64,000 nucleotides of DNA from Octopus vulgaris. Its lineage: Eukaryota. Where the stretch lies: NCBI GenBank assembly GCA_951406725.2, contig OX597821.1:99200001-99264000 (forward strand). The letters are read 5' to 3'. The position numbers are program-made. Positions 50,001 through 53,000 of the stretch are shown here, piece after piece; positions within the stretch are counted from its first letter, which is position 1, and every line of letters starts with the position of its first letter.

Positions 50001-53000
50001 TACTGATGCAATGTAATTTTCAGAAAATAACAATTCTACTTTTTGACTGCCTTCCGTGCCGATGGCACGTAAAAAGCACCATCCGAATATGGCCGATGCC
50101 AGAGCCGCCTTGACTGGCTTCCGTGCCGGTGGCATGTAAAAAGCACCAATCTGATTGTGGCCATTGCCAACCTCGCCTGGCACCTGTGCCGGTGGCATGT
50201 AAAAAGCACCCACTACACTCATGGAGTGGTTGGCGTTAGGAAGAGCATCCAGCTGTAGAAACACTGCCAGATCAGACTGAAGCCTGGTGCAGCCTCCTGG
50301 CTTCCCAGATCCCCGGTCGCACCGTCCAACCCATGCTAGCATGGAGAACGGACGTTAAACGATGATGATGATGATTCATATATATACATCATCATTTCTG
50401 TAATAATCATAAAATTCAATTTCACAGTTAAAATATTAATATGATAATGTTCTAAATCAAATACAGAGGTGTAGATTTTCACCTGTGTATACGTTTGTGG
50501 ACAGACAAAGTACTTTGTTGAGAGAATGCCTTACCACAAATATCACAGCGATATGGTTTGTCACCAGTATGGATACGTTTATGGTTCAATAAATGGCTAT
50601 TTTGAGAGAATGACTTACCACAGATGTCACAGTGATATGGTTTCTCTCCTGTGTGAATACGTTTGTGTGTGTTTAAATCAGAATTAGAAGTGAACGTTTT
50701 TTCACACGAATCACAATGATACGGTTTATCTCCTGTGTGAAGACGTTTATGCCTTGATAAATTACAAGATCGCGAGAATGATCTACCACATATATCACAG
50801 TCATACGGTTTCTCTCCTGTGTGAATTGTTTGGTGGGTAGATAATGAAACACTAGCAGTGAATGTTTTTCCACAGATATCACAATGATATGGCTTTTCTC
50901 CAGTATGAACACGTTTATGAGATATTACAGAACTACTTTCAGAGAATGTTTTACCACAAATATTACAATGGAATGGTTTTTCACCTGTGTGAATACGTTT
51001 ATGTTTGGTTAAAGATCCACTTATAGTGAATGATTTACCACAGATATCACAGTGGTATGGTTTCTCTCCTGTGTGAATACGTTTATGGGCCAATAAAATT
51101 GAACTATTAGAGAACATTCTACCACAGGTGCTGCAATGGTAAGGTTTTTCTCCTGTGTGAACACGTTTGTGTTTAGTTAAATGACCACTTATAGTAAATG
51201 ATTTACCACAAACATCACAATGATATGGTTTCTCACCTGTGTGAATGCGATTATGTGTCAATAAATCCCTATTTCGAGAGAATGCTTTACCACAAATATC
51301 ACAACGGCATGTTTTTACCTTTGAATGAATGCGTTTGTGATTAGATAAATAATCTTTGGTAGAGAAATTTTTACCACATATATCACAGTGATATGGTTTT
51401 TCTCCTGAGTGAAGAAGTTTATGAGGCTTTAAATTACCTCTTTGGGAGAATGCTTTACCACAAATATCACAGTGATATCGTTTTTCCCCTGTGTGTATAT
51501 ATTTGTGGTTAGATAAATGCTCATTTGTGGAGAACTTTTTACCACAAATATCACAGTGGTATGGTTTTTCTCCTGTATGAATACGTTTATGGGTTGTTAA
51601 ATTTGAAGTTTGTGAGAATGACTTACCACAAATATCACACTGATATGGTTTCTCACCTGTGTGAATACGTTTGTGTTTAGTTAAGTGACAATTCATATTG
51701 AATCCTTTACCACAAACGTCACATTTGTAAAGCCTCTTGCCAGTGTGAGAAAGTTTGTGTGTTGATACCAGAGTACTGCCAGTGAACGTTTTACCACAGA
51801 TATCACACCGATATGGTTTTTCTCCAGTGTGATTACGTCTGTGTATAGTTAAAGAACATTTAACAGAGAAAGTTTTACCACAGATATCACAATGATATGG
51901 TTTCTCTCCTGTGTGAACACGTTTATGTATCAATAAATGGTTTTCTTGGTAGAACGCTTTACCACAAATATCACATTGGTATGGCTTGTTGCCTGAGTGA
52001 ATAATTTTATGTCTTGTTGCCAAACCTCTAGCAGAAAATGTTTTGCCACAGATATCACAGTGGTATGGTTTTTCTCCTGTGTGAATACGTTGGTGTACAG
52101 TTAAAGAAAATTTAACAGTGAAAGTTTTATCACAGATATCACAGTTGAATGGTTTCTCTCCTGTGTGACTACGTTTGTGTTTAGATAAACTACTATTTAC
52201 AGTATACGATTTACCACAAATATTACATTGGTAAGGCTTCCCACTTGTGTGAATAAGTCTGTGTCTTCTTGCTAATCTAATAGCAGAGTATGTTTTACCA
52301 CAAATATCACACTGGTATGGATTTTCTTTTGTGTGAATATGTTTATGGTTAATTAAATTTTCATTTGTAGAGAACTTTTCACCACAAATTTTACAATTAT
52401 AGAGCTCTGAATCTGTATGAATAGACTGATGTTGAATTAAACAGTTTTGTATTTTAAAAGACTCCCCACAAATGTCACACATGAATGATGTTTTCTCTGT
52501 TTGATGAGAAACATCATTATAATCAAGTTGTATTTCATTATGGATCTGACTTTTATTTAGTTCCTCCTCCATAACATCAAATTTTCTTCACAAAATTGAA
52601 AAATACTTTTCTTCTCTAATTTTCAAGATAAATATTTCTTTAGGTATTTTCAAGAGTACAGTTTCTTCAAATATCACCTTCGTGAAACAAGATTCCCTAT
52701 ATCGCTGGTAATGTCATTTCTTTAGTCTTCAAAATCTTGATATTATCAAATACCCTGAAATATATATAGAGAATATGATATAAGCAACATTACAATACTG
52801 ACACTTTAGGGAAGAAATTTCTAACCATAGACTTTGAGAACAAATGTTAAGACAGACATAGGATTATACTCTTTACTCTGTTACTTGTCATTTGACTGTG
52901 GCCATGCTGGAGCACTGCCTTTCAGTCGGTGGGGGTACAAACACAAACATACATACTCGACGGACTTCCATACAGTTTTCATCTGCCAAATTCACTCACA

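What the first reader, a model, noticed from the sequence alone, without database searches (positions are those of the whole stretch)
50479..52572. ZNF5 is a mosaic: finger-sized tracts nearly identical to different neighbours
Seen (aligned by eye): 51163-51407 matches ZNF4 38791-39035 (245 bp, 2 mismatches). 50851-51023 matches ZNF4 38479-38651 (173 bp, 4 mismatches). 51755-51932 matches ZNF3 27100-27277 (178 bp, 2 mismatches). 51597-51679 is identical to ZNF3 26942-27024 (83 bp). Fingers 1-2 most resemble ZNF6. The matches include synonymous sites, yet the fingers between them (e.g. ZNF5 f10 and f17), the UTRs and the introns are clearly diverged. Inference: in-register interlocus gene conversion copies 1-3 finger cassettes between old paralogs and builds new DNA-binding arrays combinatorially.
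Basis: partly seen in the sequence, partly recalled or inferred. Interest (0 to 1): 0.8.

Follow-up and report, generated by a model that had tools for sequence, protein, structure and literature searches.

The report
Gene-conversion patches in a zinc-finger gene
One gene in a tandem cluster of zinc-finger genes carries four short stretches almost identical to two neighbouring copies, the expected trace of DNA copied between old duplicates, a process already known in this gene family.

Summary
All four tracts have exactly the reported lengths and mismatch counts. They are the only near-identical segments on any diagonal among the six zinc-finger ORFs in the window.

- **Significance:** each tract is significant against shuffles that preserve finger phase (0/5000, 22/5000, 0/5000 and 8/5000). 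A GENECONV-style test agrees.
- **Pair-specific and silent-site identity:** silent-site difference is 0.02-0.06 inside the tracts and 0.32-0.36 outside. Other gene pairs show 0.28-0.30 over the same stretches.
- **Tree signal:** informative sites split 21/1/0 inside the ZNF4 tracts and 16/14/15 outside.
- **Flanks:** they are old, with the 5'UTR about 75% identical and the 3' flank unalignable.

Short in-register gene conversion between old tandem paralogs is the best explanation.

Tract ends do not fall on finger boundaries. The direction of copying is only weakly indicated, as ZNF4 into ZNF5 (P=0.049). All exchanges are between fingers at matching positions with similar contact residues, so combinatorial array building is not shown.

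Short conversions among poly-zinc-finger paralogs are already published (PMC2604467). This is a clean new instance of a known process. Assembly error could not be tested, and the organism was not identified.

The parts
50479..52572 (-). ZNF5 coding sequence with stop codon. It has 697 codons: a 34-aa N-terminus with no recognised domain, then 24 C2H2 fingers of 84 nt each.
   Evidence: ORF list, translation, finger parsing. Pfam finds C2H2 families only, with no KRAB, SCAN or BTB.
51163..51407 (-). Tract T1. It runs from the end of ZNF5 f13 through f14 and f15 to codon 21 of f16, and matches ZNF4 38791-39035 (f08 end to f11).
   Evidence: 245 nt with 2 mismatches. The shuffled null reached its score in 0/5000. 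It holds a run of 30 concordant polymorphic sites, global P<1e-4. Other gene pairs differ at 28-32/245 here.
50851..51023 (-). Tract T2. It runs from ZNF5 f18 codon 12 through f19 to f20 codon 13, and matches ZNF4 38479-38651.
   Evidence: 173 nt with 4 mismatches. The null reached its score in 22/5000. Other pairs differ at 24-31/173.
51755..51932 (-). Tract T3. It runs from ZNF5 f07 codon 17 through f08 to f09 codon 20, and matches ZNF3 27100-27277. The core 51788-51932 is identical.
   Evidence: 178 nt with 2 mismatches; the core is 145 nt with 0. The null reached the core score in 0/5000. It holds a run of 22 concordant polymorphic sites, global P<1e-4.
51597..51679 (-). Tract T4. It runs from ZNF5 f10 codon 17 to f11 codon 17, and matches ZNF3 26942-27024. 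It can be extended to 51530-51679 with 4 mismatches.
   Evidence: 83 nt with 0 mismatches. The null reached its score in 8/5000. The extension is 150 nt with 4 mismatches, where other pairs differ at 24-36/150.
51680..51754 (-). Strongly diverged island between T4 and T3, covering the f09 linker and the first 50 nt of f10 (upstream of its helix end).
   Evidence: 22/75 mismatches to ZNF3, against 16.1% outside the tracts. The best in-window match for its 50-nt f10 part still differs at 12/50, so no donor is present in the window.
51024..51162 (-). Strongly diverged island between T2 and T1, mostly f17.
   Evidence: 33/139 mismatches to ZNF4. ZNF4 f12 is the outlier here, differing at 22-31/84 from its three counterparts, while ZNF5 f17 differs from ZNF3 f15 at 12/84.
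52318..52485 (-). Fingers f01-f02, an older block shared with ZNF6 (61671-61838).
   Evidence: 11/84 and 17/84 mismatches to ZNF6. 13/13 informative sites in f01 group ZNF5 with ZNF6. Silent-site difference is 0.46-0.48, so the block is old.
52755..52763 (-). Splice-acceptor-like motif (ATATTTCAG|G) 182 nt upstream of the ATG. It is conserved in ZNF3 and ZNF6, and ZNF4 has a variant. It probably marks the 5' end of the large exon. This is inferred only.
   Evidence: MAFFT alignment of the upstream flanks and a motif scan. An in-frame stop lies 6 codons before the ATG.
38107..39780 (-). ZNF4 coding sequence (19 fingers), partner of T1 and T2.
25824..27752 (-). ZNF3 coding sequence (22 fingers), partner of T3 and T4.
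   Evidence: The ATG position follows from the translation.
60066..61925 (-). ZNF6 coding sequence (21 fingers). It serves as the comparison copy and shares the f01-f02 type with ZNF5.

Best explanation
ZNF3 to ZNF6 are old tandem duplicates of a poly-C2H2 zinc-finger gene with no recognised effector domain. They lie in the same orientation, about 10-12.5 kb apart. Well after the duplications, two to four short non-allelic (interlocus) gene-conversion events copied 83-245 nt or more between ZNF5 and the colinear positions of ZNF4 (12 kb away) and ZNF3 (24 kb away). The likely route, which is inferred, is repair of a break in one array using the aligned paralogous array as template, leaving a short patch without crossover.

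As a result, 679 of the 2091 coding nt of ZNF5 (32%) are nearly identical to a neighbour. This includes the recognition helices of f08-f09 (ZNF3) and of f14-f16 and f19 (ZNF4).

Shown:
- the tracts themselves and their significance;
- that the identity is pair-specific and includes silent sites;
- the old, star-like background among the four genes;
- the in-register geometry.

Inferred:
- the repair mechanism;
- the direction of copying, with a weak hint of ZNF4 into ZNF5;
- the number of events;
- any effect on DNA binding.
For: - **Exact tracts:**, confirmed independently by MAFFT.
- **Uniqueness:** they are the only 4 segments scoring 55 or more across all diagonals of the six ORFs. The next best scores 51.
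- **Permutation tests:** (0/5000, 22/5000, 0/5000, 8/5000).
- **GENECONV-style test on polymorphic sites:** ZNF5-ZNF4 has a run of 30 and ZNF5-ZNF3 a run of 22, both global P<1e-4. The other 5 pair tests give global P of 0.73 or more.
- **Silent sites:** 5.0/84.0 inside against 41.9/129.8 outside for ZNF5-ZNF4, and 1.0/54.7 against 87.9/247.7 for ZNF5-ZNF3. Control pairs over the ZNF4 tracts show 0.28 and 0.30.
- **Tree signal:** informative sites are 21/1/0 inside T1+T2 and 16/14/15 outside; Fisher P=1.5e-6.
- **Old flanks:**
- **Residual differences inside tracts:** 6 silent and 2 replacing. This exceeds the 21% silent share expected of random errors (P=0.0015).
- **Direction hint:** changes specific to the shared ZNF5=ZNF4 tract sequence are 12 replacing to 9 silent. 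That resembles the ZNF4 branch outside the tracts (26:14) and differs from the ZNF5 branch (4:14, P=0.049).
Against: - No reads, second assembly, other haplotype or related species could be examined. So the tracts are not shown to be real in the organism, and neither direction nor age is anchored.
- The silent-site tests inside against outside the tracts are post hoc, because the tracts were chosen for their low mismatch count. Only the permutation tests and the control pairs avoid this circularity.
- The adjacency test of tree support over the whole 13-finger block is not significant (P=0.11), and the PHI-type test is modest (P=0.02).
- T2 (22/5000) and T4 (8/5000) are individually weaker than T1 and T3.
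- The direction test rests on 21 and 18 sites.
- A donor elsewhere in the genome, giving the same patch to both genes, cannot be excluded.
Confidence: 0.85

Rival explanations
1. The mechanism is the same but the direction is reversed. ZNF5 is the donor and ZNF3 and ZNF4 are the patched genes, so ZNF5 is not the mosaic.
For: All four tracts involve ZNF5, which fits one donor as well as one recipient. ZNF5 is the most conserved copy at the protein level: it has 4 replacing singletons, against 24-38 in the others, at equal silent counts. Conversion into the more relaxed neighbours might therefore be better tolerated, but this is inference. The ZNF3 tracts give no direction signal (2 replacing to 3 silent).
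Against: The lineage-specific changes carried by the ZNF5=ZNF4 tracts are 12 replacing to 9 silent. That is unlike the ZNF5 branch elsewhere (4:14, P=0.049) and like the ZNF4 branch (26:14, P=0.59). The numbers are small.
Confidence: 0.3
2. The tracts are assembly or polishing chimeras: reads of one paralog were used to correct another.
For: Tract sizes of 83-245 nt are on the scale of short reads. No read data could be checked here.
Against: - Outside the tracts the partners differ at 16-17%, so a 150-nt read would carry about 24 mismatches at the wrong copy and should not map there. This is inference.
- The tracts are contiguous and carry 0-4 differences, which are mostly silent (6 of 8). 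That exceeds the share expected of random errors (P=0.0015) and exceeds it only marginally for leftover background differences (P=0.07).
- Chimeras made by long-read assemblers would be kilobases long.
Confidence: 0.05
3. ZNF5 is a chimera made by unequal crossing-over between neighbouring genes, or the tracts are what remains of a recent duplication.
For: The genes are tandem and in the same orientation, and they differ in finger number (19-24), which shows that unequal exchange has occurred in the family. The f01-f02 block shared with ZNF6 could be such an old junction.
Against: Each tract is bounded on both sides by sequence 16-29% different from the same partner. The flanks of ZNF5 are not close to those of any neighbour. 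Outside the tracts no tree is preferred (16/14/15).
Confidence: 0.04
4. The tracts are slowly evolving segments kept alike by selection, for example on an overlapping RNA or regulatory element.
For: Silent-site difference over the ZNF4 tracts is somewhat lower in control pairs too (0.28-0.30 inside against 0.38-0.45 outside).
Against: The identity is specific to one pair. ZNF3 and ZNF6 differ from ZNF5 and ZNF4, and from each other, at 24-32 sites in the same tracts. Rfam finds no match in the window.
Confidence: 0.01

Closest known systems
Short gene conversions among lineage-specific poly-zinc-finger paralogs (Emerson and Thomas 2009, PMC2604467; passages read)
   Same: The gene class is the same (tandem poly-C2H2 arrays) and so is the signal. 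[quoted passage not shown]
   Different: Those sets are vertebrate and insect genes, many with KRAB, SCAN or BTB domains. Here no effector domain is found and the organism is unidentified. The paper treats conversion as a nuisance to remove before selection tests and, in the passages I read, does not map tracts onto fingers.
Interlocus gene conversion in segmental duplications and tandem families (for example PMC3790853, seen only as a search listing and abstract start)
   Same: Short patches of raised identity between old duplicates, detected by runs of shared variants and by a local change of tree.
   Different: Nothing essential differs. The repeat structure of the finger array adds the question of register, and here the register is strictly positional.
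PRDM9-type minisatellite finger arrays, with concerted evolution inside one array (papers seen as listings only)
   Same: C2H2 fingers of 84 nt exchanged by recombination.
   Different: PRDM9 fingers are nearly identical to one another within the array, and exchange is out of register within or between alleles. I recall this and did not test it against PRDM9 itself. In ZNF5 the closest pair of fingers differs at 12/84 nt, and no off-register near-identical segment exists.
Templated patchwork diversification by gene conversion, such as chicken immunoglobulin V genes and olfactory receptor clusters (recalled; one olfactory title seen in a reference list)
   Different: Those systems use many donors and create new combinations. 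Here only two partners and four patches are seen, between fingers at matching positions with already similar contact residues.

Membership tests
Interlocus (non-allelic) gene conversion tract | A segment of significantly raised identity between paralogs against their own background | tested here: met
   The four tracts score 83-203 against a best of 51 elsewhere. The shuffled null reached the observed scores in 0/5000 to 22/5000 runs.
Interlocus (non-allelic) gene conversion tract | The raised identity includes silent sites and is specific to one pair | tested here: met
   Silent-site difference is 0.018-0.060 inside and 0.32-0.36 outside. Control pairs show 0.28-0.30 over the same tracts. Other pairs differ at 24-32 sites in the tracts.
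Interlocus (non-allelic) gene conversion tract | The tree in the tract differs from the tree in the flanks | tested here: met
   Informative sites are 21/1/0 inside T1+T2 and 16/14/15 outside; Fisher P=1.5e-6. This could be done for the ZNF4 tracts only. The ZNF3 tracts lack a fourth aligned sequence over T3.
Interlocus (non-allelic) gene conversion tract | One-way transfer with a known donor and recipient | tested here: inconclusive
   There is a weak hint of ZNF4 into ZNF5 (P=0.049). T4 is uninformative. T3 is not testable with the sequences at hand.
Interlocus (non-allelic) gene conversion tract | Present in the organism's DNA and not only in the assembly | not testable with these tools
   No reads or second assembly were available. 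Only indirect arguments apply.
Krueppel-type poly-C2H2 zinc-finger gene | Tandem C-x2-C-x12-H-x3-H units of 28 residues joined by TGEKP-like linkers | tested here: met
   ZNF5 has 24 units at exact 28-residue spacing. Pfam zf-C2H2 and zf-H2C2_2 each match in 22 stretches.
KRAB, SCAN or BTB zinc-finger subfamilies | An N-terminal effector domain | tested here: not met
   Pfam finds finger families only. An in-frame stop lies 6 codons upstream of the ATG. An effector on a separate gene or exon is not excluded.
PRDM9-like minisatellite array (homogenisation within one array) | Neighbouring fingers of one array nearly identical outside the contact codons | tested here: not met
   The closest pair of fingers within ZNF5 differs at 12/84 nt. 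No off-register segment scores above 41 within any one gene.
Chimeric gene by unequal crossing-over | Long parent-like blocks with a single junction and a matching flank | tested here: not met
   The tracts are bounded on both sides by 16-29% divergence. The flanks are diverged.

The most novel reading that the evidence does not exclude
ZNF5 is the strongly constrained member of the cluster, and gene conversion is its main source of protein change. Outside the tracts its own branch carries 4 replacing and 14 silent changes (omega about 0.07). Its neighbours carry 24-38 replacing changes at equal silent counts (omega about 0.45). If the ZNF4 tracts came into ZNF5, they brought in 12 replacing changes at once. 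At contact positions ZNF5 and ZNF4 share f14 D where ZNF3 and ZNF6 have Q, and f19 E where they have D. On this reading the relaxed neighbours act as a testing ground, and ready-made recognition modules of one to three helices are copied from them into the conserved gene. The strongly diverged islands between tracts would then be kept out by selection or by rejection of mismatched heteroduplex.
Probability: 0.15. Interest if true: 0.55.

Novelty: new member of a known kind. Interest (0 to 1): 0.3.

Why it matters
The finding has practical value for anyone analysing this cluster. Trees, orthology calls and dN/dS tests on these genes will mislead unless the four tracts, about a third of ZNF5, are masked. 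Emerson and Thomas applied the same precaution (PMC2604467).

Biologically it is a clear worked example. Old tandem zinc-finger paralogs with no recognised effector domain still exchange patches of 80-250 nt, strictly between matching finger positions, against a star-like background. It also raises a testable contrast between one constrained copy and its relaxed neighbours.

It does not reveal a new mechanism.

Tried and rejected
- **Taxon and relatives.** Three protein searches gave only generic zinc-finger proteins at 61% identity or less, or nothing: whole ZNF5, its N-terminal 62 residues (1 candidate, none scored), and ZNF2. An exact look-up of four proteins found none. The ZNF3 entry in that look-up used a wrong start, 27722 instead of 27752, so it counts as three valid look-ups. 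The organism stays unidentified. A SINE-like repeat reminded me of cephalopods, but that is recall only.
- **Other window content.** Pfam found no credible domain in 9 other ORFs; the one match (DUF5538, 16.9 bits) is below its cut-off. Rfam found no family.
- **Megablast self-scan.** A scan at 95% identity or more missed the tracts, because its hits ran on into the flanks. I replaced it with an all-diagonal segment scan.
- **Offset error.** The first ZNF5-ZNF3 permutation used a wrong offset above 51981, because ZNF3 has a 6-nt insertion there. I redid it on 50482-51981.
- **Older mosaic layer.** None is seen in the C-terminal 13 fingers (P=0.59). The adjacency test over the whole block was not significant (P=0.11).
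- **ZNF5-ZNF6 tracts.** No recent ZNF5-ZNF6 tract was found.
- **Donor for the islands.** None is present in the window.
- **Direction for the ZNF3 tracts.** Too few sites.
- **Literature.** The 2015 octopus genome paper was not held. Mentions of gene conversion in PMC6444547 and PMC9068888 concern engrailed/invected and protocadherins, not zinc-finger genes. PMC2443715 mentions it only in its reference list.
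Full report
**What is in the window.** Six long minus-strand ORFs lie about 10-13 kb apart: 1243-3039, 12529-13995, 25824-27800, 38107-39795, 50479-52587 and 60066-61940. All translate into uninterrupted arrays of C2H2 zinc fingers.
- The fingers sit at an exact 28-residue (84-nt) spacing. The one exception is a 2-codon insertion in ZNF3 between its fingers 4 and 5.
- ZNF5 has 24 fingers, ZNF3 has 22, ZNF4 has 19 and ZNF6 has 21.
- Pfam finds only finger families in ZNF5, with no KRAB, SCAN or BTB. 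An in-frame stop lies 6 codons upstream of the ATG.
- The window is AT-rich (33-45% G+C) and has no N.
- Nothing in it looked human. The best protein identities to any database entry were 61% or less.
- The coding sequence lies in one exon, so I built and searched no spliced model.

**The observation.** All four matches are exactly as reported: 245 nt with 2 mismatches, 173 with 4, 178 with 2 and 83 with 0. A MAFFT alignment of the four genes over 50800-51450 shows the two ZNF4 tracts directly.

Both ZNF4 tracts lie at one offset (12372) and both ZNF3 tracts at one offset (24655). These are the offsets that align the arrays finger for finger. ZNF5 f12-f24 is colinear with ZNF3 f10-f22, ZNF4 f07-f19 and ZNF6 f09-f21, and ZNF5 f07-f24 is colinear with ZNF3 f05-f22.

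**Is it more than chance?** I scored every diagonal between and within the six ORFs with +1 per match and -20 per mismatch. The next best anywhere is a 51-nt exact match between ZNF1 and ZNF2.

I then shuffled the match/mismatch string 5000 times, only among fingers at the same within-finger position. This keeps the conserved framework and the variable helix codons in place. The null reached the observed score in 0/5000 (T1, 51163-51407), 22/5000 (T2, 50851-51023), 0/5000 (T3 core, 51788-51932) and 8/5000 (T4, 51597-51679).

A GENECONV-style test uses polymorphic sites only and permutes their order.
- ZNF5-ZNF4 has a run of 30 concordant sites, global P<1e-4.
- ZNF5-ZNF3 has a run of 22 concordant sites, global P<1e-4.
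- The other five pair tests give global P of 0.73 or more.

**Why it is copying and not constraint.** Outside the tracts ZNF5 differs from ZNF4 at 110/662 nt (16.6%) and from ZNF3 at 199/1239 nt (16.1%). Inside T1 the pair ZNF5-ZNF4 differs at 2/245, while the five other pairs differ at 28-32. Inside T2 the figures are 4/173 against 24-31. In the extended T4 (51530-51679) ZNF5-ZNF3 differs at 4/150 against 24-36 for the others.

Silent sites tell the same story.
- ZNF5-ZNF4: 5.0/84.0 inside against 41.9/129.8 outside.
- ZNF5-ZNF3: 1.0/54.7 inside against 87.9/247.7 outside.
- Control pairs over the ZNF4 tracts keep a silent-site difference of 0.28 and 0.30.

The inside-against-outside tests are post hoc, since the tracts were picked for identity. 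The control pairs and the permutations are the unbiased part.

In the 13-finger block aligned for all four genes, informative sites split 21 (ZNF5+ZNF4), 1 and 0 inside T1+T2. Outside they split 16, 14 and 15 (Fisher P=1.5e-6). So the background is star-like and the tracts have one clear tree.

**The duplicates are old.**
- Intergenic DNA shares only interspersed repeats.
- Upstream of the ATG the genes align for about 330 nt. The 5'UTR-like part is 72-75% identical among ZNF3, ZNF4 and ZNF5, with 18-25 gap columns, and 61-69% identical to ZNF6.
- A conserved acceptor-like motif lies 182 nt before the ZNF5 ATG.
- Downstream of the stop, identity is 57-76% for 40 nt. For ZNF5 against ZNF3 and ZNF4 it then falls to 36-44%.

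These figures agree with the silent-site difference outside the tracts. The coding exon as a whole has therefore not been homogenised. Only the patches are young.

**Anatomy of the patches.** The four tracts cover 679 of 2091 coding nt (32%). None of the eight tract ends lies at a finger boundary; they fall at codons 12-24 of the 28-codon unit. 'Cassette' therefore describes the size (1.0-2.9 units) but not the borders.

The tracts include whole recognition helices. The contact residues (helix positions -1, 2, 3 and 6) of f08 and f09 equal those of ZNF3 f06 and f07. Those of f14, f15, f16 and f19 equal those of ZNF4 f09, f10, f11 and f14.

The gaps between paired tracts are more diverged than the background.
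- 51680-51754 differs from ZNF3 at 22/75 nt.
- 51024-51162 differs from ZNF4 at 33/139 nt.
- In the second gap ZNF4 f12 is the odd one out. It differs at 22-31/84 from its three counterparts, and its nearest relative is its own neighbour f13 at 17/84.
- No donor for either gap exists in the window.

Each pair of tracts may therefore be two events, or one longer event interrupted by a segment too diverged to pair, or one later overwritten. I cannot tell which. The count is two to four events.

**Direction.** The background distances are nearly equal, so distances cannot polarise the events.

One indirect test was possible. Outside the tracts, silent singletons are equal across genes: 13, 14, 14 and 21 for ZNF3, ZNF4, ZNF5 and ZNF6 (P=0.45). 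Replacing singletons are 24, 26, 4 and 38. That gives omega of about 0.45, 0.46, 0.07 and 0.44. So ZNF5 is the constrained copy.

The changes specific to the shared ZNF5=ZNF4 tract sequence are 12 replacing to 9 silent. That resembles the ZNF4 branch (26:14, P=0.59) and not the ZNF5 branch (4:14, P=0.049). For T4 there are only 5 such sites, and T3 lacks a fourth aligned sequence.

**Fingers 1-2.**
- f01 differs from ZNF6 f01 at 11/84 nt, and from ZNF3 and ZNF4 at 26-27/84.
- f02 has a counterpart only in ZNF6, at 17/84.
- All 13 of 13 informative sites in f01 group ZNF5 with ZNF6.
- The 5'UTR-like stretch splits 5/5/2, and the coding stretch before f01 gives 0 of 3 sites for that grouping.
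- Silent-site difference to ZNF6 is 0.46-0.48.

So this block boundary is real but about as old as the family. It is not part of the recent exchange.

**Limits of the mosaic.** With the tracts removed, tree support along the 13-finger block shows no clustering (P=0.59). Over the whole block the adjacency test gives P=0.11 and a PHI-type statistic gives P=0.02. No recent tract links ZNF5 with ZNF6, or ZNF3, ZNF4 and ZNF6 with one another. No exchange is out of register. Matching fingers of the four genes already have similar contact residues. The evidence therefore shows local homogenisation between positional counterparts, not shuffling into new orders.

**Rivals.**
- *Assembly or polishing error.* This cannot be tested without reads. 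It is unlikely by inference: at 16-17% background difference a short read would not map to the wrong copy, and assembler chimeras would be much longer. The 8 residual differences inside the tracts are 6 silent and 2 replacing. That exceeds the share expected of random errors (P=0.0015) and exceeds it only marginally for leftover background differences (P=0.07).
- *Unequal crossing-over.* It does not fit patches bounded on both sides.
- *Constraint.* It does not fit the pair-specificity of the identity.

**What is known.** Emerson and Thomas (PMC2604467; passages read) ran GENECONV on lineage-specific poly-zinc-finger paralogs. They report short regions of gene conversion in a few genes of many sets, and in most chicken genes. 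A 2022 preprint on metazoan zinc-finger genes (10.1101/2022.11.29.518450; one passage read) refers to the tendency of these genes to undergo gene conversion. Kauzlaric et al. (PMC5363842; passages read) mention recombination and 'shifting' of finger-coding sequences in mouse clusters.

My searches for reports in invertebrate or cephalopod zinc-finger clusters listed none. In the two papers I opened for this, the mentions of gene conversion concerned other gene families. This covers only the held open-access library.

**What stayed unchecked.**
- The organism, since searches gave no close relative.
- Other copies of the family elsewhere in the genome.
- Other haplotypes and related species.
- The metagenome and viral contig collections, which were closed. 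The genome collection holds only bacteria and archaea and was not used.

**Verdict.** Gene conversion between old tandem paralogs is well supported. The direction of copying is open, with a weak lean toward ZNF5 as recipient, and the combinatorial reading is not supported. This is a clean new instance of a process already described for this gene class.

Noticed in passing
window 50482-51561 (ZNF5 f12-f24) and the colinear parts of ZNF3, ZNF4 and ZNF6: Outside the tracts ZNF5 has as many silent singleton changes as its neighbours (14, against 13, 14 and 21) but far fewer replacing ones (4, against 24, 26 and 38). It looks like the one strongly constrained copy in the cluster, with omega about 0.07 against about 0.45.
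   Followed up: partly
window 51680-51754 and 51024-51162: The gaps between paired tracts are more diverged than the background: 22/75 and 33/139 mismatches against about 16%. They sit over the variable, specificity-determining parts of f10 and f17. No donor is present in the window, and ZNF4 f12 is closest to its own neighbour f13 at 17/84.
   Followed up: partly
window 50043-50390; also 55626-55978, 36097-36420, 36679-36990, 6074-6380, 6626-7040, 24800-24968, 43314-43607 and others: A SINE-like interspersed repeat of about 320 nt ends in a GATGATGATGA run. One copy lies about 90 nt downstream of the ZNF5 stop. Copies are 75-92% alike. It reminded me of a cephalopod SINE, but that is recall only and untested.
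   Followed up: no
window 35720-36246: A tandem array of a 125-nt unit (two sub-units of 61-64 nt), 4.2 copies, 94% matches. It is related to the 5' part of the SINE-like repeat. It creates spurious ORFs in three frames at 35633-36271.
   Followed up: no
window 17513-17605 and 17848-17939: An inverted repeat of 93 nt at 97.8% identity, with arms about 240 nt apart, inside a 233-codon ORF that has no Pfam match. It may be the ends of a small DNA element.
   Followed up: no
window 27327-27332 (ZNF3, between f04 and f05): ZNF3 alone has a 2-codon insertion in a linker (finger spacing 30 instead of 28 residues). This shifts its offset to ZNF5 from 24655 to 24649 upstream of that point. It caused my offset error.
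   Followed up: yes
ZNF5 51298-51330 and its counterparts in ZNF3, ZNF4 and ZNF6: All four genes share an atypical linker and finger start, H-x-x-[VI]-K-[TP]-C-[RH]-C in place of HTGEKP-Y-x-C, at the same array position (ZNF5 f14/f15). It is a handy marker of positional homology.
   Followed up: no
window 1243-3039 and 12529-13995 (ZNF1, ZNF2): ZNF1 and ZNF2 form a second subfamily. They are 74.7% identical over 1544 nt, have their own shared upstream segments (79% over 233 nt), and show no near-identical tract beyond a 51-nt exact match.
   Followed up: no
window 18524-18580, 24965-25011, 31105-31151, 41006-41067, 55568-55619, 59396-59431: AT-dinucleotide microsatellites and palindromic AT-rich stretches recur in the intergenic DNA.
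   Followed up: no
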